This document shows positions 4,626 through 60,232 of a DNA stretch of 64,000 nt, piece by piece. The DNA comes from Escherichia coli. Its GTDB lineage: Bacteria > Pseudomonadota > Gammaproteobacteria > Enterobacterales > Enterobacteriaceae. The DNA is taken from the NCBI RefSeq assembly GCF_017348835.2, contig NZ_CP071375.1, one strand, 5' to 3'. The position numbers were made by a program, and so were the translations under genes. The first letter of the stretch is position 1, and every line of letters starts with the position of its first letter. Below the pieces are notes generated by a model. The model was not told the origin of the DNA. It searched no databases and saw only the letters and a program-made list of their open reading frames with translations.

Positions 4626-4886
4626 TCAGGACTCGCTCACCACCACCGTACCGATTTCCGGGTGGCTAAAGCTGGTAATTTTATCCAGACGTAGCTCACG
4701 GGTTTCGCCAGCGGCCTCGACGACCAGATACTCCACATTTTTGCGGGAGACTAAATCGCTGGCTTTTGCCTGCAATTTTTCGCCATCTTTCAGCTCAAGT
4801 GTCAGCATTAAATGATGCTGGCAGGCGAGCTCAAGATTATCGTAATCATCACAATTGATTGGTTGATACGTATCATTCATTGACAT
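4626..4886 (-). CDS. rof: Rho-binding antiterminator Rof
   Basis: 86 aa ORF matches Rof as recalled. Confidence 0.85.
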
Positions 4887-53832: not shown

Positions 53833-55572
53833 TCAACTCAACGCCCCCATAATCTTCAACTCCAGCTCATCCGGCACTTCGTTATACGACAGCACATGCA
53901 GCCCCGGCGCAAACAACCTTGCGTAGCGCGCTAGCAAAGGGCGCAGCTGCGGCGGCACCAGCAGCACCGGGTCTTTCCCCGCCGCTTTCATCTGCTCCTT
54001 CACCTGCGGCATCGTGCTCTGGAACTGGTTGAGCATATTCGGGTCGACCGGCACGCTGTCGAGCATCACTTTGCCGCCCTGTTGCGCCTGATTCACCACG
54101 TTGGTCAGCAGATTTTCCAGCTCATTATTCAGCGTATACACCGTCAGCTCCTGCTTGCGAACGAAAGGATGAGTAATGCTGCGCCGCAGCGCCAGGCGCA
54201 CATCGGCCGCCAGCAGAATATGATCTTTGGTCACCGCGCTACTGGCGACCAGCACGGTGGCGATGGTGACGATGTCGCGCAGGGAAACGCCTTCGGTCAG
54301 CAGCGCACGGTACACTTTCAGCAACTGGCTGTAATTCAGCGCCGCGCTCAAATCCTCCGCCAGGCGCGGTGCCATTGACGACAAACGGTTATGCAACTGC
54401 GTGATGTCATCATAGTTAAACAAATCAGGAATATAACTGCGCACAATCTTATTCACATGGGTGGCAATCACGCTGGCGCTGTCGATCACCTGATACCCCA
54501 TATTCAGCGCCTTCGCTTTCTGCGCAGGCTGGATCCAGGTGACTGGCATCCCATACGCCGGGTCGTTCCCCAGCACGCCGTCTATCTCGCCGTAGGTTTC
54601 GCTGGAGGGCAGGGCCATCAGTTTATCCGCCGGAATATCCGCTTCATCAGCCTTAATGCCGTTGATGAAAATGGCGTACTGGCTGGGCTTGAGGCGGAAA
54701 TTTTCCCTAATGCGGATCTCCGGCAGCAGCACGCCGTTGCCGTCGGATATCACCTGCCGCACGCCGCGGATCCGCTGGGTGAGCGGGTTACCCTGTGCTT
54801 TATCGACCAGCGCTACTAGCTTGTAGCCAAGGCTTAAGCTGATGGGTTCGATCAGCGGAATGGTTTCCCAACTGACCTGTTGCTCGCTGGTTTCAGTGAT
54901 GGTGCGGGTCAGCGTTTCGAGGCTTTTCTCCTCCGCCTCTGCCGCCTGCGGCTGTTTGCTCATTCGCCAGCCGGTAAAGCCAAGCAGGGCGCTGAACATC
55001 AGGAACGGCAGGTGCGGCATCCCCGGCACCACTGCCAGCACAAACATAATTCCGGTAGCGGTGTAGAGCACCGACGGGCTTGCCAGCAGTTGGTTACGCA
55101 CGTCATGGGCGATATCGCCGTTGTCGCTGACGCGGGTGACGATAATCGCCGCTGCGGTGGAGAGCAGCAGGGAAGGGATCTGCGCCACCAGCCCATCGCC
55201 GATGGTCATCAGCACATATTGCTGGAAGGCGGCATCGGCGCTCAGGTTGTATTTGAAGATCCTGATACAGACGCCGCCGATCAGGTTGATCGCCAGAATC
55301 ATCATCCCGGCGATGGCATCCCCGCGCACAAACTTCGATGCCCCGTCCATCGCGCCGTAGAAATCGGCTTCGCTGGCGACATCTTTACGCCGGGTTTGCG
55401 CCTGCGCCTGGTTGATCAATCCGGCGTTAAGGTCGGCGTCAATCGCCATCTGCTTGCCGGGCATCGCGTCAAGGGTAAAGCGGGCAGAAACCTCGGAAAT
55501 ACGCTCGGCCCCTTTGGTGACGACAATAAAGTTGATTGTCAACAGCGTCAGTAAATCCGAGCGTGAAAGCAT
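53833..55572 (-). pseudogene. lfhA: FlhA-like flagellar export protein fragment (Flag-2 remnant)
   Basis: 579 aa ORF homologous to FlhA but lacking the N-terminal ~120 aa. Confidence 0.7.
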
Positions 55573-55574
55573 TA

Positions 55575-56302
55575 TCGCCGCGCTGCACGGGCAGTCGATT
55601 TTTAACGGTGGTGGGCTGTCGCCGTTAAATAAAATCAGCCCGTCTCATCCGCCAAAACCTGCCACCGTGGCGGTGCCGGAAGAGACGGAGAAAAAAGCGC
55701 GTGATGTGAATGAGAAAACGGCGCTGCTGAAGAAGAAATCCGCCACCGAGCTTGGCGAGTTGGCAACCAGTATCAACACCATTGCCCGTGATGCGCATAT
55801 GGAAGCGAATCTGGAGATGGAGATTGTTCCCCAGGGATTACGCGTGCTGATTAAAGACGACCAGAATCGCAATATGTTCGAACGCGGCAGCGCGAAGATT
55901 ATGCCGTTCTTTAAAACGCTGCTGGTGGAGCTAGCGCCAGTGTTCGACTCGCTCGATAACAAAATTATTATTACCGGGCATACCGATGCGATGGCCTACA
56001 AAAACAATATCTACAACAACTGGAACCTTTCGGGCGATCGCGCGCTTTCAGCTCGTCGGGTGCTGGAAGAGGCCGGAATGCCGGAAGATAAAGTGATGCA
56101 GGTAAGCGCAATGGCGGACCAGATGCTGCTGGATGCCAAAAATCCGCAAAGCGCGGGCAATCGGCGTATTGAGATTATGGTGCTGACCAAAAGTGCGTCC
56201 GATACGCTGTATCAATACTTTGGTCAGCATGGGGATAAAGTGGTGCAGCCACTGGTGCAAAAGCTGGATAAGCAGCAGGTGCTTTCGCAGCGAACGCGTT
56301 AA
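55575..56302 (+). pseudogene. lafU: MotB-like fragment (Flag-2 remnant)
   Basis: OmpA-like C-terminal domain (NWNLSGDRALSARRV...NRRIEI); the 5' part of the ORF is antisense lfhA. Confidence 0.6.
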
Positions 56303-56372: not shown

Positions 56373-57428
56373 ATGCGTAAAATCATTCATGTGGATATGG
56401 ACTGCTTTTTCGCAGCGGTGGAGATGCGCGACAATCCCGCCCTGCGCGATATCCCTATTGCTATTGGCGGCAGCCGCGAACGTCGAGGGGTGATCAGCAC
56501 CGCCAATTATCCCGCGCGTAAATTTGGCGTACGTAGCGCTATGCCGACAGGGATGGCGCTCAAATTATGCCCACATCTCACCTTGCTTCCGGGGCGCTTT
56601 GACGCCTACAAAGAAGCCTCAAATCATATCCGTGAAATCTTCTCGCGCTACACCTCGCGCATTGAACCGTTGTCACTGGATGAAGCCTATCTCGATGTCA
56701 CCGATAGCGTCCATTGCCACGGTTCTGCGACCCTCATCGCCCAGGAAATCCGCCAGACGATTTTCAGCGAGCTGCAACTGACGGCGTCTGCGGGCGTGGC
56801 ACCAGTAAAGTTTCTCGCCAAAATCGCCTCCGACATGAATAAACCCAACGGCCAGTTTGTGATTACGCCGGCAGAAGTTCCGGCATTTTTACAAACCTTA
56901 CCACTGGCAAAAATCCCCGGCGTCGGCAAAGTCTCGGCGGCAAAACTGGAAGCGATGGGGCTGCGGACCTGCGGTGATGTACAAAAGTGTGATCTGGTGA
57001 TGCTGCTTAAACGCTTTGGCAAATTTGGCCGCATTTTGTGGGAGCGTAGTCAGGGGATTGACGAACGCGATGTTAACAGCGAACGGTTGCGAAAATCCGT
57101 CGGCGTGGAACGCACGATGGCGGAAGATATTCATCACTGGTCTGAATGTGAAGCGATTATCGAGCGGCTGTATCCGGAACTTGAACGCCGTCTGGCAAAG
57201 GTAAAACCTGATTTACTGATTGCTCGCCAGGGGGTGAAATTAAAGTTCGACGATTTTCAGCAAACCACTCAGGAGCACGTCTGGCCGCGGCTGAATAAAG
57301 CTGACTTAATCGCCACCGCGCGTAAAACCTGGGATGAACGCCGCGGCGGGCGCGGTGTGCGACTGGTGGGGCTGCATGTGACGTTGCTTGACCCGCAAAT
57401 GGAAAGACAACTGGTGCTGGGATTATGA
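56373..57428 (+). CDS. dinB: DNA polymerase IV
   Basis: 351 aa; [18 protein letters not shown]-family signature. Confidence 0.9.
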
Positions 57429-57877
57429 ATAACATACAAATAAGAAACTATCAGCCTGGCGATTTTCAGCAACTATGCGCTATTTTCATTAGAGCGGTTA
57501 TGATGACCGCCAGTCAGCATTATTCACCACAACAAATTGCCGCCTGGGCGCAGATTGACGAATCTCGCTGGAAGGAGAAACTCGCGAAATCACAAGTGCG
57601 GGTTGCAGTCATTAATGCACAACCGGTTGGTTTTATTTCCCGCATTGAACATTATATCGATATGTTATTTGTTGACCCTGAATACACCCGCCGTGGGGTT
57701 GCCAGCGCTTTGTTAAAACCTTGGATTAAGTCTGAATCCGAACTTACGGTGGACGCAAGCATAACCGCAAAACCCTTTTTTGAACGTTATGGTTTTCAGA
57801 CAGTTAAGCAGCAGCGCGTTGAATGCCGGGGAGCGTGGTTTACTAATTTTTCTATGCGATATAAACCGCAACATTAA
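57425..57877 (+). CDS. yafP: GNAT acetyltransferase YafP
   Basis: 150 aa; start overlaps the dinB stop (ATGA). Confidence 0.8.
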
Positions 57878-58183
57878 ATCCAGCTTGCAATGAAAATAAC
57901 GCCCGCCTGGTATGTGCGCGTTTTCTTATTCCACAAACTGCAAGGAGGTAAATCATGACAAATCCTTTATCAATGACTCTTTGCAGACCTTTCCAGGATT
58001 AATTCTTTTTTTCTTGCCCTGGATTCGTCTGCCATTTCCTGATTTTTAATATTTATATACTCTAAATAATTCGAGTTGCAGGAAGGTGACAAGCGAGTGA
58101 ATCGCCAGGAGCTTACTAAAGTAAGTGACTGGGGTGAACGAACGCAGTCGCAGTACATGCAACTTGAAGTATGACGAGTATAA

Positions 58184-58450
58184 ATGGAATGGTACATGGG
58201 CAAATATATTCGTCCCTTATCCGATGCGGTATTTACCATCGCATCTGATGACCTGTGGATCGAGAGTTTAGCGATCCAACAATTACACACCACGGCAAAT
58301 TTACCCAACATGCAGCGCGTAGTGGGGATGCCAGATTTACACCCCGGACGCGGCTACCCGATTGGCGCAGCGTTCTTCTCTGTTGGTCGTTTTTACCCGA
58401 CAAGACGTCGCGGTAACAGTGCTGGAAACAGAAACAGGTCGTTACTCTGA
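58184..58450 (+). pseudogene. ykfJ: RtcB-like fragment
   Basis: 88 aa ORF resembling an RtcB fragment; fused out of frame to prfH. Confidence 0.5.
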
Positions 58451-58786
58451 CACCCTGCGTTCAGCGCTGGTTTCTCTGAATGGCGACAACGCATGGGCAT
58501 TAAGCGAAAGCTGGTATGGCACTATTCAGTGGATTTGTCGGAGTCCGTATCGCCCACATCATGGGCGTAAAAACTGGTTTCTGGGCATTGGGCGTTTTAC
58601 TGCTGATGAGCAGGAACAATCCGACGCGGTCCGTTATGAGACGCTGCGTTCGTCGGGGCCGGGCGGTCAACATGTCAATAAAACCGATTCGGCGGTGCGC
58701 GCCACGCATCTGGCTACCTGGATTAGCGTGAAGGTTCAGTCAGAGCGCAGCCAGCATGCCAACAAGCGGCTGGCACGATTGCTGAT
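58397..58786 (+). pseudogene. prfH: Peptide chain release factor homolog PrfH, 5' part, interrupted by an IS element
   Basis: GGQ motif [17 protein letters not shown]; reading frame continues at 60097. Confidence 0.7.
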
Positions 58787-58828
58787 TGAACCGCCCCGGG
58801 TTTCCTGGAGAGTGTTTTATCTGTGAAC

Positions 58829-59716
58829 TCAGGCTGCCAGATCATTATTTCCGATGGAAGCATAATAAGCTTTTTCTGCTTCTGCCGGAGGAATATGGCC
58901 CAGCCTTTCCAGCAATCGTCGATTGTTATACCAGTCCACCCACGTTAGTGTGGCCAGTTCCACTTCTGTCCGGTTTTTCCAGCTCTTACGGTGTATTACC
59001 TCCGCTTTGTAAAGACCATTGATGCTCTCCGCCATCGCGTTGTCATACGAGTCGCCAGTACTCCCTGTTGATGCCAGTAATCCGGCTTCCTTAAGCCGCT
59101 GCGTGTAGGCCAGCGATACATACTGAGAACCTTTATCACTGTGATGGATTGTGCCGGACGGCCGACGGGCCCACAACGCCTGCTCCAGTGCATCCAGCAC
59201 GAATGTTGTTTCCATGGATGATGAGACCTGCCATCCCACGATGTATCCGGCGAACACATCAATGATGAACGCCACATAAACGAAGCCCTGCCATGTGCTT
59301 ACCCAGGTAAAATCAGCCACCCACAACTGGTCTGGACGTTCTGCCACGAACTGACGGTTTACGCGGTCGCATGCGGCAACGGCTTTCCGGCTGACGGTAG
59401 TGCGGACCTTTTTACCCCGGAGAACACCGGCAAGTCCCATAACTGCCATGAGACGTGCCACAGTGCATCTGGCCACTCTGATACCTTCCCGTAACAACTG
59501 ACGCCAGACTTTACGCACACCGTATACCTGGTGATTTTCATCGTATACGCGCTGTATCTCTTTCTTCAGCCAGTCATCGTGCTGCGCACGGGCACTGCGT
59601 TTATCCGGATGATGTCGCTGTTGCTGACAATGGTAATACGTTGACGGGGCAATATGCAGTTCGCTGCATACCGGTCCGACCCCGTACTGCTCACGCAGCT
59701 TATCCAGCAGTGGCAT
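58829..59716 (-). CDS. IS3-family transposase OrfB (DDE integrase domain)
   Basis: 295 aa rve-domain ORF; probably expressed as an OrfAB fusion by -1 frameshifting. Confidence 0.85.
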   Translation of the reverse strand: MPLLDKLREQYGVGPVCSELHIAPSTYYHCQQQRHHPDKRSARAQHDDWLKKEIQRVYDENHQVYGVRKVWRQLLREGIRVARCTVARLMAVMGLAGVLRGKKVRTTVSRKAVAACDRVNRQFVAERPDQLWVADFTWVSTWQGFVYVAFIIDVFAGYIVGWQVSSSMETTFVLDALEQALWARRPSGTIHHSDKGSQYVSLAYTQRLKEAGLLASTGSTGDSYDNAMAESINGLYKAEVIHRKSWKNRTEVELATLTWVDWYNNRRLLERLGHIPPAEAEKAYYASIGNNDLAA

Positions 59717-60042
59717 TATTTTTTCCAGAGGCGGTCGAACTCCGCCTTCGCAAAATAAGCGGAAGCCTGGCGAAGGATATCGTTACTGCGGCGCAGTTCA
59801 CGATTTTCACGTTCCAGCTCTTTCAGACGCTGACGTTCAGCGGTGGTGAGTCCACCATCACCACTCCCGGTATCCCGCTCATGCTGGCGAACCCAGACAC
59901 GCAGAGTCTCCGGCGTACAGCCAATCTTTGGGGCAATGGAACAAATTGCCGCCCACTGTGAGTCATATTCATCCTGACTTTCCAGAACCATACGAATCGC
60001 CCGCTGACGGACTTCGGGGGAAAAACGAGTATTTTTAGTCAT
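59716..60042 (-). CDS. IS3-family transposase OrfA (HTH)
   Basis: 108 aa, [22 protein letters not shown]...; leucine-zipper-like C-terminus. Confidence 0.85.
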
Positions 60043-60096
60043 CCTGTTTACCTCTTTCTCAGGGAGTTTAGTCTCCAGGATTTCCGGGGCGGTTCA

Positions 60097-60232
60097 GATT
60101 GCCTGGAAGCTGGAGCAACAGCAACAGGAAAATAGCGCAGTGCTGAAATCGCAGCGGCGAATGTTCCATCACCAGATTGAACGTGGCAACCCGCGACGAA
60201 CGTTTACAGGGATGGCTTTTATCGAAGGATAA
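60097..60232 (+). pseudogene. prfH: PrfH 3' part (after the IS insertion)
   Basis: Translates to [43 protein letters not shown], continuing from LARLLI before the IS. Confidence 0.7.

What the first reader, a model, noticed from the sequence alone, without database searches (positions are those of the whole stretch)
57940..58180. Short ORF with a strong Shine-Dalgarno and a GC-rich leader upstream of the ykfJ/prfH remnant
caaggaggtaaatcATG at 57944-57958 starts a 15-codon ORF (MTNPLSMTLCRPFQD). It is followed by about 150 nt of relatively GC-rich sequence before ykfJ. This could be a leader peptide or structured 5' region of the RtcB-PrfH operon, or simply remnant sequence.
Basis: inference. 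Interest (0 to 1): 0.25.

Follow-up and report, generated by a model that had tools for sequence, protein, structure and literature searches.

The report
Ribosome-stall leader ORF plus ERIC repeat
The 15-codon ORF is real and is the E. coli counterpart of a known Pseudomonas leader peptide that senses stalled ribosomes and controls the RtcB-PrfH ribosome-repair operon, while the "GC-rich leader" behind it is an ordinary ERIC repeat and the operon itself is dead in this strain.

Summary
AAGGAGGT (57942-57949), a 5-nt spacer and ATG start a 15-codon ORF (57955-58002, MTNPLSMTLCRPFQD).

The finding contains two unrelated things.

1. The ORF and its flanks (57885-58041) are a conserved leader of the rtcB2-prfH operon. 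The same architecture occurs in 36 distinct leaders from Escherichia, Salmonella, Klebsiella, Citrobacter, Enterobacter, Cronobacter, Pragia and Pseudomonas. It consists of a promoter, a strong SD, a 13-18-codon ORF and a hairpin whose 5' arm is the ORF's last codons. The hairpin covaries. The peptide is not conserved, but the position of its stop codon is. The leader aligns with P. aeruginosa PA5471.1, the 13-aa leader peptide of armZ(rtcB-like)-PA5470(prfH). Published work on PA5471.1 proposes that it couples ribosome stalling to operon expression.

2. The "GC-rich ~150 nt" (58055-58182) is a 128-nt ERIC repeat. It is absent or internally deleted in other E. coli, including strains with intact operons.

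In this window the operon is a remnant (a ~1-kb deletion plus an IS), so the leader controls nothing useful. How the OFF state forms in enterics is inferred, not shown. Verdict: an unannotated E. coli ortholog of a known leader, and a known repeat.

The parts
57885..57913 (+). Putative sigma-70 promoter of the leader/rtcB-prfH transcript: -35 TTGCAA (57885-57890), 17-nt spacer, -10 TGGTAT (57908-57913; TAGTAT in strains with intact operons). A GC-rich discriminator GTGCGCG and a T run follow.
   Evidence: The hexamers are conserved while the spacer varies, from E. coli to P. aeruginosa (A2, A5). The site is below the threshold of the consensus scan. In P. aeruginosa the leader is reported to be transcribed from a constitutive promoter (PMC13041342).
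57942..57949 (+). Shine-Dalgarno AAGGAGGT of the leader ORF, 8 nt complementary to the 16S 3' end, with a 5-nt spacer.
   Evidence: (A)AAGGAG is invariant in 36 leaders (A4, A5).
57955..58002 (+). Leader ORF of 15 codons plus TAA (MTNPLSMTLCRPFQD), the ortholog of P. aeruginosa leader peptide PA5471.1 (MIQFSTLCRLRLA).
   Evidence: An ORF of 13-18 codons is present in every leader examined. The N-terminus is variable. The stop always lies 2-4 nt after the upper 5' arm of hairpin B, even in two leaders that read the motif in another frame.
57938..57986 (+). Helix A: CUGCAAGGAG (57938-57947, covering the SD) pairs with CUCUUUGCAG (57977-57986, codons 8-11). It shares GCAG with hairpin B, so A and B exclude each other.
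   Evidence: the repeat finder I6. The helix is in the MFE fold of nearly all species and of the window. It is 96% paired across 17 sequences, but both sides are invariant, so there is no covariation.
57983..58032 (+). Hairpin B: 5' arm GCAGACCUUUCCAGG (57983-57997, leader codons 10-15) and 3' arm CCUGGAUUCGUCUGC (58018-58032). The leader stop codon lies in its loop.
   Evidence: the repeat finder I2. It is the only helix in the RNAalifold consensus. Covariation: GC:23/AU:11/GU:1 and AU:16/UG:13/UA:2. In the count of hairpin B together with helix C, 0-1 of 500 shuffles reached the observed values.
58032..58039 (+). CCAUUUCC, immediately 3' of hairpin B, is complementary to the rtcB ribosome-binding region GGAAUGG (helix C, 'anti-RBS').
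   Evidence: The pairing appears in MFE folds of most species and of the window, where it closes around the ERIC hairpin. Duplex energies are -7 to -11.5 kcal/mol against -6.2 for shuffled sequence, but the cognate versus non-cognate test is not significant (p=0.34).
58055..58182 (+). ERIC (IRU) repeat, full-length form, 128-nt imperfect palindrome, inserted in the loop between the anti-RBS and the rtcB RBS. Boundaries are uncertain by about 5 nt.
   Evidence: The ERIC2 primer site matches with 1 mismatch and ERIC1R with 3 (primer sequences confirmed). Arms 58056-58080 and 58158-58182. RNA fold -52.9 kcal/mol, z -8.6. Median 5 matching places per E. coli genome. At this site other strains have an empty site or a copy with a 72-nt internal deletion (A1, A2). 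Sub-threshold Rfam match to V_AS5.
58186..58198 (+). rtcB (ykfJ) translation initiation region: the conserved GGAAUGG (58186-58192) and ATG (58196-58198).
   Evidence: GGAWUGG-N3-5-AUGGGCA is conserved from E. coli to P. aeruginosa (A4, A5). The start matches RefSeq annotation.
58196..58786 (+). Dead cargo: the first ~69 codons of rtcB are fused by a ~1-kb deletion (junction ~58400) to prfH codon ~31 onward. The prfH remnant is then cut at ~58787 by an IS3-family element (~58787-60100, minus strand), and the prfH 3' end resumes at ~60100-60232.
   Evidence: Translations. Pfam RtcB and RF-1 fragments and transposase domains. RefSeq pseudogene annotation. Baranov 2006 (PMC1586002).

Best explanation
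The finding covers two independent elements.

(1) Positions 57885-58041 are the leader of the rtcB2-prfH (ykfJ-prfH) operon. The leader has its own promoter, an 8-nt Shine-Dalgarno and a 15-codon ORF. Its last six codons form the 5' arm of a conserved hairpin (B), and the stop codon lies in the hairpin loop. This is the enterobacterial ortholog of the P. aeruginosa PA5471.1 leader peptide, which lies upstream of armZ (an RtcB-like ligase) and PA5470 (prfH).

Proposed working, by analogy with PA5471.1 and partly supported by folding here. A ribosome that reads the leader to its stop codon unzips hairpin B. This frees B's 3' strand and the adjacent CCAUUUCC to form the OFF structure. In enterics the OFF structure is most likely pairing with the rtcB ribosome-binding region GGAAUGG..AUG. 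In P. aeruginosa a terminator has been proposed. A ribosome that stalls or aborts early in the leader (antibiotics, damaged decoding centre, uncharged tRNA) melts the SD-sequestering helix A but leaves B free to form, and the operon is expressed. Only the act of translation matters, not the peptide.

Shown here: conservation of the ORF, hairpin B and the sequence blocks, and homology to PA5471.1. Taken from the literature: stall-dependent induction in P. aeruginosa, and induction of E. coli ykfJ by 4-azaleucine. Inferred: the nature of the OFF state in E. coli.

(2) Positions 58055-58182 are a 128-nt ERIC repeat inserted between the anti-RBS and the rtcB RBS. It folds on itself, so the flanking pairing can still close around it.

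In this strain rtcB-prfH is destroyed (deletion plus IS), so the leader is an intact relic.

The confidence of 0.8 is for the identities (ortholog of the PA5471.1 leader, and an ERIC copy). For the specific RBS-masking mechanism in E. coli I would give about 0.4.
For: Synteny and presence. An SD-preceded ORF of 13-18 codons lies upstream of rtcB-prfH in every locus examined: 8 genome loci, 11 contexts of PrfH homologs, P. aeruginosa, and at least 28 metagenome contigs in which the leader pattern lies ~40 nt upstream of an rtcB homolog.

The constraint is on RNA and on translation, not on the peptide. N-terminal residues vary. The conserved residues (L-C-R, Q) coincide with stem nucleotides, and loop codons vary. 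L024 and L039 keep CUUUGCAGG in another reading frame yet keep an ORF whose stop lies at the same place in hairpin B.

Hairpin B. It is the RNAalifold consensus in 17 and in 35 sequences, with compensatory changes: GC:23/AU:11/GU:1 and AU:16/UG:13. In the count of B together with helix C, 93% of cells are paired, 6 pairs changed on both sides, and 0-1 of 500 shuffles reached the observed values.

Homology to PA5471.1. L081:1211-1252 encodes MIQFSTLCRLRLA. It has 13 codons, CAG at nt 7-9 and TTC at nt 10-12, and lies 254 nt upstream of armZ. This matches the published Q3Am, Q3K and F4L mutations and the '~250 bp upstream' position (PMC13041342; PMC3516279). The -35, -10, SD, CUUUGCAG, CCWGG, GYCUGCC and GGAWUGG-AUGGGCA blocks all align (A5). 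A covariance model built without P. aeruginosa hits its leader at E 2e-5 and the window at 90 bits, although the near-identical E. coli leaders in the model make the window hit expected. Chance pattern matches are rejected.

Function, from the literature. Stalling on PA5471.1 restructures the RNA and induces armZ. E. coli K-12 ykfJ is reported as inducible by 4-azaleucine (review PMC3516279).

Folding. Helices A and C appear in MFE folds across species and in the window with ERIC. Masking a ribosome footprint on codons 1-2 or 4-5 lowers the opening energy of the rtcB initiation region from 10-13 to 6-9 kcal/mol in most enterics. Masking late codons does not.

ERIC.
Against: There is no direct evidence that the E. 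coli ORF is translated. The one small-ORF ribosome-profiling supplement I could search lists nothing near K-12 coordinate 253239. K-12 carries only the remnant operon, and possibly a weakened -10 hexamer.

Helix A has no covariation, because both sides are invariant. Helix C shows complementarity, but the cognate versus non-cognate test failed (p=0.34). Helix D is weak.

No intrinsic terminator is detectable in the E. coli leader, nor in the P. aeruginosa leader with the same simple scan. The published 'transcriptional attenuation' model therefore cannot be transferred as it stands.

In the equilibrium model the untranslated RNA has a closed rtcB initiation region. In contrast, a start-codon mutant in P. 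aeruginosa is reported to be constitutive. That detail comes from my memory of the Morita 2009 abstract, which I could not read.

The footprint simulation is noisy: codon 3 gives no effect, and several species show no trend.

The primary papers (Morita 2006, 2009) were not available. I rely on reviews and on a 2026 paper that restates them.
Confidence: 0.8

Rival explanations
1. The leader works as in the published P. aeruginosa model. It is a transcription attenuator in which full translation of the leader lets an intrinsic terminator form, or gives Rho access, upstream of rtcB. Masking of the rtcB ribosome-binding site is not involved.
For: Transcriptional lacZ and qPCR data in P. aeruginosa are summarised as transcriptional attenuation with a terminator formed by segments 3 and 4 (PMC13041342; PMC12057347). 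The segment after hairpin B is U/C-rich and G-poor in all species (A4), which would suit Rho loading.
Against: No stem followed by a U-tract is found in the 65-nt E. coli spacer or in the P. aeruginosa leader. The U run starts 8-9 nt after hairpin B. [quoted passage not shown] Complementarity between the anti-RBS and the rtcB RBS is present in every leader.
Confidence: 0.3
2. The ORF encodes a functional 15-residue micropeptide whose sequence (the ..LCRPFQD motif) acts in trans or as a sequence-specific arrest peptide.
For: The C-terminal L-C-R-x-x-Q motif is shared by most enteric leaders and LCR by Pseudomonas leaders. In P. aeruginosa, codons Q3 and F4 matter in a cca mutant.
Against: The conserved residues map exactly onto stem nucleotides, and non-stem codons vary (P/H/L/S/R, F/S/L/T/I, D/E/A/G/Q). 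Two leaders read the same nucleotides in another frame and give unrelated peptides: MQHVTLQSTNRFAGIFWG and MRQSISPSLQVVAGA. N-termini are unrelated. Length varies from 13 to 18 residues.
Confidence: 0.05
3. The GC-rich 58055-58182 segment is a dedicated structured regulatory element (riboswitch or thermosensor type) of the rtcB-prfH 5' UTR.
For: It folds very stably (-52.9 kcal/mol, z -8.6). It lies inside the 5' UTR, 13 nt upstream of the rtcB start.
Against: It carries the ERIC core and occurs in about 5 megablast-detectable places per E. coli genome. At this site it is absent in L004, L007 and L008 and internally deleted by 72 nt in L002, L003 and L009, all but L002 with intact operons. It is absent from Salmonella, Klebsiella oxytoca, Citrobacter, Pragia and Pseudomonas leaders. 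It could still modulate mRNA stability as a side effect. ERICs have been reported to do so in Yersinia, but that is from my own knowledge and was not checked here.
Confidence: 0.05
4. The ORF is a chance ORF in decaying intergenic sequence next to a pseudogene and has no function.
For: The downstream genes are dead in this strain. SD-plus-ATG motifs with one mismatch occur at about chance frequency in the window. Nothing is annotated here in any of 5,449 E. coli records or in K-12.
Against: The 124 nt around the ORF are invariant across four diverse E. coli. The architecture is conserved in other genera, families and genomic contexts. Hairpin B covaries.
Confidence: 0.03

Closest known systems
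PA5471.1, the 13-aa leader peptide of the armZ (PA5471)-PA5470 (prfH) operon of Pseudomonas aeruginosa (Morita et al. 2009; reviews PMC3516279, PMC12057347; PMC13041342)
   Same: The operon is orthologous: an RtcB-family ligase followed by PrfH. Both leaders have a strong SD (GCAAAGGAGGU), a short ORF with ..L-C-R.., the invariant CUUUGCAG(R), hairpin arms GCAGRC/GYCUGC and CCWGG/CCNGG, a stop codon in the hairpin loop, and the conserved GGAWUGG-AUGGGCA start region. The promoter hexamers and GC-rich discriminator are also conserved (A5; covariance-model hit at E 2e-5).
   Different: The E. coli ORF has 15 codons rather than 13. The leader is compact: about 65 nt from the leader stop to the rtcB start without ERIC, against about 210 nt in P. 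aeruginosa, where ~130 extra nt sit inside the hairpin loop. No room or signal for a separate intrinsic terminator is visible in E. coli. E. coli has no MexZ/MexXY output, so the cargo is only the ribosome rescue and repair pair. Regulation in E. coli has not been tested, apart from the reported 4-azaleucine induction of ykfJ. The ORF is unannotated in E. coli records.
ERIC / IRU (enterobacterial repetitive intergenic consensus) elements
   Same: It is a 128-nt imperfect palindrome that carries the ERIC1R and ERIC2 primer core. It is intergenic and lies within a transcribed region. Several copies occur per genome. At this site it shows presence/absence polymorphism and an internally deleted short form. 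The literature describes ERICs as 127-bp imperfect palindromes (PMC6066780) and as probable MITEs (PMC3116915).
   Different: Nothing unusual. The only point of note is its position in the loop between the anti-RBS and the RBS of a regulatory leader. Other hairpin inserts also occupy this site in other taxa.
ermC / cat-type translational attenuation leaders
   Same: A short SD-preceded leader ORF overlaps one arm of a hairpin. Ribosome stalling in the leader is proposed to re-pair the downstream RNA. The ribosome-binding site of the regulated gene is complementary to an upstream segment.
   Different: There is no sequence homology. The stall is not known to depend on a specific nascent peptide and drug pair. 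The alternative pairing that would free the rtcB RBS is not fully defined, because the anti-RBS directly abuts hairpin B. Evidence for RBS masking is complementarity only.
Autoregulated or defect-sensing expression of other ribosome rescue and termination factors (prfB frameshift site; arfA non-stop mRNA controlled by tmRNA)
   Same: The logic is the same: expression of a rescue factor is coupled to the translational defect it relieves. This comparison rests on my own knowledge.
   Different: The mechanisms are entirely different, with no frameshift site and no RNase III-generated non-stop mRNA. The feedback by PrfH/RtcB2 on leader-stalled ribosomes is speculation.

Membership tests
PA5471.1-type leader of armZ/rtcB2-prfH operons | A short ORF preceded by a Shine-Dalgarno sequence lies on the same strand upstream of an RtcB-family gene that is followed by prfH. 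| tested here: met
   SD at 57942-57949 and ORF at 57955-58002. The rtcB remnant starts at 58196 and the prfH remnant follows. The layout is the same in intact loci.
PA5471.1-type leader of armZ/rtcB2-prfH operons | The leader RNA is homologous in sequence to the P. aeruginosa leader. | tested here: met
   Alignment A5 shares the -35, -10, SD, AUG, CUUUGCAG, CCWGG, stop, GYCUGCC and GGAWUGG-AUGGGCA blocks. Model R1, built without P. aeruginosa, hits L081:1184-1293 at 33 bits, E 2e-5, and the window at 90 bits. The window hit is partly by construction, because near-identical E. coli leaders are in the model.
PA5471.1-type leader of armZ/rtcB2-prfH operons | A conserved RNA secondary structure overlaps the 3' end of the leader ORF. 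| tested here: met
   Hairpin B at 57983-58032 is the RNAalifold consensus, with compensatory changes in 5 of 10-11 pairs.
PA5471.1-type leader of armZ/rtcB2-prfH operons | The leader ORF is translated. | not testable with these tools
   The only indirect support is conservation of the SD, the start, ORF openness and stop position despite divergence of the peptide and even frame changes. There is no entry near K-12 253239 in the Stringer et al. small-ORF supplement.
PA5471.1-type leader of armZ/rtcB2-prfH operons | The downstream operon is induced by ribosome stalling or translation inhibitors. | not testable with these tools
   Literature only. P. aeruginosa. E. coli K-12 ykfJ is reported as inducible by 4-azaleucine (review PMC3516279 citing Morita 2006). 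The primary papers are not held.
PA5471.1-type leader of armZ/rtcB2-prfH operons | A transcription terminator (segments 3:4) lies between the leader ORF and the RtcB-family gene. | tested here: inconclusive
   No terminator-like site was found in the window or in L004. The same scan also finds none in the P. aeruginosa leader, so the scan may simply miss it.
ERIC / IRU repeat | An imperfect palindrome of about 127 bp. | tested here: met
   58055-58182 is 128 nt, with outer arms of 25 nt that are 80% complementary. The RNA fold is -52.9 kcal/mol, z -8.6. Definition from PMC6066780.
ERIC / IRU repeat | A conserved central core, which is the target of the ERIC1R and ERIC2 primers. | tested here: met
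   ERIC2 matches at 58119-58140 with 1 mismatch. ERIC1R matches at 58097-58118 on the minus strand with 3 mismatches. About 0 matches are expected by chance. The primer sequences are as printed in 233 papers.
ERIC / IRU repeat | Dispersed multiple copies per genome, and insertion polymorphism between strains. | tested here: met
   The median is 5 matching places per E. coli genome. Only 1,651 of 5,426 genomes cover at least 80% of the intergenic query. The empty site and the 72-nt internal-deletion allele are shown in A1 and A2.
Any curated Rfam family (cis-regulatory leader, riboswitch, sRNA) | A match at or above the family gathering score. | tested here: not met
   Only sub-threshold matches were found in the window: V_AS5 at 43 bits against a gathering score of 96, and Ysr49 at 17.6 against 95, both over the ERIC copy. 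Eight intact loci gave no match at gathering thresholds.
ermC-type translational attenuator (works like, not a member) | The RBS of the regulated gene is sequestered by pairing that is relieved when a ribosome stalls in the leader. | tested here: inconclusive
   CCAWUUCC x GGAWUGG complementarity is present in every leader and in MFE folds. There is no covariation signal (p=0.34). The footprint simulation gives a 3-5 kcal/mol opening for early stalls in most enterics but is noisy.
Amino-acid biosynthesis attenuators (trpL/hisL type) | Runs of regulatory codons for one amino acid in the leader peptide, followed by an intrinsic terminator. | tested here: not met
   No codon runs occur in any of the leader peptides, and no intrinsic terminator was found.

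The most novel reading that the evidence does not exclude
The leader is the ancestral, general damage sensor of the RtcB2-PrfH ribosome rescue and repair module across Gammaproteobacteria. Ribosomes with a broken decoding centre (for example after colicin E3 or CdiA cleavage), or otherwise unable to elongate, are captured by the unusually strong SD and stall in the first codons. This switches the leader RNA and induces the very proteins that release and religate them, and PrfH/RtcB2 then reset the sensor. In enterics the switch would act on the rtcB ribosome-binding site rather than on a terminator. The MexZ/MexXY antibiotic-resistance output in P. aeruginosa would be a late add-on to this circuit.
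Probability: 0.3. Interest if true: 0.6.

Novelty: new member of a known kind. Interest (0 to 1): 0.35.

Why it matters
The E. coli papers on PrfH and RtcB2 that I could search express the genes from plasmid promoters or refer only to 'natural expression levels'. None of the five mentions a leader or a native promoter. The Pseudomonas literature treats PA5471.1 as a peculiarity of MexXY regulation.

Showing that the same leader travels with rtcB2-prfH from E. coli to Pseudomonas connects the two fields. It predicts that the ribosome-repair operon is induced by stalled or damaged ribosomes in enterics. It also supplies a compact ~110-nt natural variant of the sensor, without the ~130-nt Pseudomonas insert, on which the still unconfirmed mechanism could be dissected. 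Finally, it identifies an unannotated translated-ORF candidate in E. coli (K-12 coordinates 253239-253286).

For this particular window the practical importance is low. The operon is a pseudogene and the GC-rich segment is an ordinary ERIC copy.

Tried and rejected
- **yafP terminator.** I first read the stem-like sequence after yafP (57897-57920) as a yafP terminator. I rejected this because cross-species alignment shows conserved hexamers with a variable 17-nt spacer, which is promoter-like, and the terminator scan finds nothing there.
- **Rfam.** There is no family at gathering score in the window region or in 8 intact loci. The weak STnc350 match on the minus strand (E 0.52) is treated as chance.
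- **Other ORFs.** The minus-strand 113-aa ORF (57970-58311) and the plus-strand 45-aa ORF (57912-58049) have no Pfam match. The former runs through the ERIC copy.
- **Helix D** (UUGCCC in the loop of B pairing with GGGCAA of rtcB codons 1-3). It is 89% paired but fails in distant species and shows no covariation. I did not retain it.
- **Co-evolution of helix C.** The cognate versus non-cognate duplex test was negative (p=0.34).
- **16S fragment idea.** I considered whether the 3' 16S fragment released by colicin E3 pairs with the anti-RBS. The E. coli and most Pseudomonas anti-RBS sequences are not complementary to the 16S tail, by inspection, so I dropped the idea.
- **Ribosome-profiling support.** The Stringer et al. 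supplement has nothing at K-12 2532xx. The Meydan et al. supplements are not held.
- **Primary papers.** Morita 2006 and 2009 are not held. A full-text search for the peptide MIQFSTLCRLRLA found nothing. The cluster look-up refuses peptides under 20 aa.
- **Genome-collection scan.** The scan with RtcB2 returned only 8 loci, so diversity came from PrfH homolog contexts and one metagenome DNA-pattern scan. About half of the 56 pattern hits were chance matches without an rtcB downstream.
Full report
**What is in the sequence**

The window is E. coli chromosome: lfhA'-lafU'-dinB-yafP-[306-nt spacer]-rtcB/prfH remnant-IS-pepD.

In the spacer, AAGGAGGT (57942-57949) is followed after 5 nt by ATG (57955). 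Fifteen sense codons (MTNPLSMTLCRPFQD) and TAA (58000-58002) follow.

A perfect AAGGAGGT-N5-ATG occurs only here in the 64 kb. With one mismatch allowed the count is 2, against 0.8 expected by chance. The motif alone proves nothing.

The 'GC-rich' stretch is real but modest: GC is 0.45-0.52, against about 0.3 just upstream.

**The GC-rich stretch is an ERIC repeat**

- Positions 58055-58182 form a 128-nt imperfect palindrome, with outer arms 58056-58080 and 58158-58182.
- As RNA it folds at -52.9 kcal/mol (z = -8.6).
- It contains the ERIC2 primer sequence with one mismatch and the ERIC1R sequence with three (primer sequences confirmed).
- ERICs are described as 127-bp imperfect palindromes (PMC6066780) and are thought to be MITE-like (PMC3116915).
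- A megablast of the 306-nt spacer finds a median of five places per E. coli genome. Only 1,651 of 5,426 genomes cover at least 80% of the query.

Alignment of four alleles (A1; also A2) shows three states at this site:

| State | Loci |
|---|---|
| Full element | window, K-12, O157, L006 |
| Copy with a 72-nt internal deletion | L002, O26 L003, L009 |
| Empty site | L004, L007, L008 |

Intact rtcB-prfH operons occur with all three states. The only Rfam signals are sub-threshold matches of this element to V_AS5 and Ysr49. So the 'structured GC-rich leader' is a mobile repeat, not an operon-specific regulator.

**The short ORF belongs to a conserved leader**

The unique part of the spacer (57878-58048) is invariant over 124 nt around the ORF in four diverse E. 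coli. It is nearly invariant in other Escherichia species.

Outside Escherichia, every rtcB-prfH operon I could retrieve has the same architecture. These were:

- K. oxytoca, K. spallanzanii, Citrobacter and an Enterobacteriaceae MAG.
- Salmonella, C. farmeri, K. aerogenes, Kosakonia, Enterobacter and Cronobacter.
- Entomohabitans, Pragia, Entomomonas, a Pseudomonas species and an unassigned contig, some in quite different genomic contexts.
- At least 28 metagenome contigs recovered with a DNA pattern, each with an rtcB homolog starting about 40 nt downstream.

The shared parts are, in order:

- A TTGCAA-N17-TAnnAT promoter-like pair with a GC-rich discriminator.
- The SD (A)AAGGAG(G).
- An ORF of 13 codons (Pseudomonas type), 15 (enterics), 16 or 18.
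- The invariant CUUUGCAG(R).
- A hairpin, then GYCUGCC followed by CCAWUYCC.
- An A/U-rich spacer.
- GGAWUGG-N3-5-AUGGGCA, which is the rtcB start region (A3, A4, A5).

**What is under selection**

The peptides differ freely in the N-terminal half. Examples are MTNPLSMT.., MNTDFQNA.., MQQLEIST.. and MQQLIT...

The conserved residues (L-C-R and Q) coincide with stem nucleotides. Codons in the internal loop vary.

Two leaders (L024 and L039) keep CUUUGCAGG but read it in another frame. Their peptides are MQHVTLQSTNRFAGIFWG and MRQSISPSLQVVAGA. Both still keep an open frame whose stop lies 2-4 nt after the upper 5' arm of the hairpin.

So the RNA, and the fact and extent of translation, are constrained. 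The peptide is not.

**RNA structure**

Hairpin B (window 57983-57997 with 58018-58032) is the RNAalifold consensus in both alignments. It carries compensatory changes: lower stem GC:23/AU:11/GU:1 and upper stem AU:16/UG:13/UA:2. Counted on the structure I supplied (hairpin B plus helix C), 93% of cells are paired and 6 pairs changed on both sides. Only 0-1 of 500 shuffles reached those values, and the slid controls collapse.

Three further pairings rest on weaker evidence:

- **Helix A.** The SD region CUGCAAGG pairs with CUUUGCAG. It is 96% paired and appears in nearly all MFE folds, but both sides are invariant, so there is no covariation.
- **Helix C.** CCAUUUCC just 3' of B pairs with GGAAUGG upstream of the rtcB AUG. 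It is present in MFE folds and its duplexes are better than shuffled controls. A cognate versus non-cognate test is not significant (p = 0.34).
- **Helix D.** It is weak.

In the window's own transcript, helix C is predicted to close around the self-folded ERIC hairpin. This may explain why that loop tolerates insertions: ERIC in E. coli and, independently, in K. spallanzanii, and other hairpins in Entomomonas, L024 and L039.

**Comparison with what is known**

The five papers on PrfH and RtcB2 that I could search say nothing about a leader or native promoter. K-12 and RefSeq annotate nothing in the spacer.

A search for 'ykfJ' led to the Pseudomonas MexXY literature. In that organism:

- armZ (PA5471) is an RtcB-like ligase in an operon with PA5470 (prfH).
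- The operon is controlled by a 13-residue leader peptide, PA5471.1.
- Ribosome-targeting antibiotics, or suhB, cca, fmt and folD defects, stall ribosomes on the leader, restructure the RNA and induce armZ.
- Transcriptional attenuation is proposed, but 'additional studies are needed' (PMC3516279, PMC12057347, PMC13041342, PMC3884212).
- The 2012 review states that E. coli K-12 ykfJ is also inducible by 4-azaleucine.

I retrieved a P. aeruginosa locus (L081). L081:1211-1252 encodes MIQFSTLCRLRLA, 254 nt upstream of armZ. CAG lies at nt 7-9 and TTC at nt 10-12, exactly as required by the published Q3Am, Q3K and F4L mutations.

It aligns block for block with the window's leader (A5). A covariance model built from 35 other leaders hits the P. 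aeruginosa leader at E = 2e-5 and the window at 90 bits. It rejects chance pattern matches.

The window ORF is therefore the enterobacterial ortholog of PA5471.1.

**How it probably works**

Shown here: the architecture, hairpin B and the homology. Taken from the literature: stalls or premature stops early in the leader turn the operon on in P. aeruginosa.

Inferred for E. coli:

- A ribosome reading to the stop codon occupies the 5' arm of B. B's 3' strand plus CCAUUUCC then pair with the rtcB initiation region (OFF).
- A ribosome held at the first codons melts helix A and lets B form, which loosens that pairing (ON).

A footprint-masking simulation gives limited support. The opening energy of the rtcB initiation region is 10-13 kcal/mol in free RNA. 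It falls to 6-9 with a ribosome on codons 1-2 or 4-5 in most enterics, and stays at 10-14 with a ribosome on late codons. The signal is noisy.

The model does not explain why a start-codon mutant would be constitutive, as I recall from the 2009 abstract, which I could not read.

No intrinsic terminator is detectable in the E. coli or P. aeruginosa leaders with the simple scan. A Rho-dependent or terminator-based mechanism remains a serious rival.

**State in this window**

The first ~69 codons of rtcB are fused to prfH codon ~31 by the known ~1-kb deletion. An IS3-family element (~58787-60100) splits the prfH remnant.

The leader is intact except that its -10 hexamer reads TGGTAT. The intact-operon strains I looked at have TAGTAT. 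The sample is small and I did not follow this up.

**Verdict**

The 'leader peptide' reading is supported, and it can be named: the ortholog of PA5471.1. The 'structured GC-rich 5' region' is an ERIC copy.

Neither element is a new kind of thing. The E. coli ORF appears to be unannotated. Its conservation across Gammaproteobacteria links the E. coli ribosome-repair literature with the Pseudomonas efflux-regulation literature.

Noticed in passing
window 56373-57877: dinB is followed directly by yafP (overlapping stop and start). The yafN-yafO toxin-antitoxin pair present in K-12, L002 and L004 is absent here, as it is in L001 and O26 L003.
   Followed up: no
window 57908-57913: The -10 hexamer of the leader promoter is TGGTAT in the window, K-12 and L002, which all carry rtcB-prfH remnants. 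It is TAGTAT in L003, L004 and L006-L009, which carry intact operons. This could be decay of the promoter after the operon died, but the sample is tiny and K-12 ykfJ is reported to be inducible.
   Followed up: partly
window ~58787-60100 (minus strand; orfB 58829-59716, orfA 59716-60042): An IS3-family insertion sequence (rve and HTH_Tnp_1 domains; I recall it as IS629/IS1203-like) splits the prfH remnant, whose 3' end resumes at ~60100-60232. The same arrangement occurs in E. coli F2_81 (CP043542). RefSeq annotates an 'AL1L pseudoknot' in this IS.
   Followed up: partly
L012 2424-2486; L022 ~990-1060; L024 ~1015-1045; L039 ~4725-4770 (minus strand): The loop between the anti-RBS and the rtcB RBS carries independent insertions in several taxa: a short ERIC in K. 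spallanzanii and unrelated hairpins in Entomomonas, L024 and L039. It seems to be an insertion-tolerant or preferred site.
   Followed up: partly
L081 1253-1415: The P. aeruginosa leader has about 130 extra, GC-rich nucleotides inside the loop of hairpin B compared with other Pseudomonas-type leaders from metagenomes, which are as compact as the enteric ones. The published terminator model may concern this lineage-specific insert.
   Followed up: no
window 57914-57925 and the equivalent positions in A5: A GC-rich discriminator (GCGC..) followed by a T run lies directly after the -10 hexamer and is conserved from E. coli to Pseudomonas. It is reminiscent of rRNA P1-type, stringently controlled promoters.
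   Followed up: no
window 58055-58220: Rfam families V_AS5 (Vibrio antisense RNA) and Ysr49 (Yersinia sRNA) give sub-threshold full-length matches to the ERIC copy. This suggests those families were built on ERIC-derived transcripts.
   Followed up: no
window 57889-57961 (minus strand): There is a weak match to Salmonella sRNA STnc350 (21 bits against a gathering score of 60, E 0.52) opposite the leader promoter and SD. It is probably chance.
   Followed up: no
window 53833-56302: The region holds remnants of the lateral flagellar (Flag-2) cluster: an N-terminally truncated flhA-like gene and a lafU gene annotated with an internal stop in the identical strain 504239.
   Followed up: no
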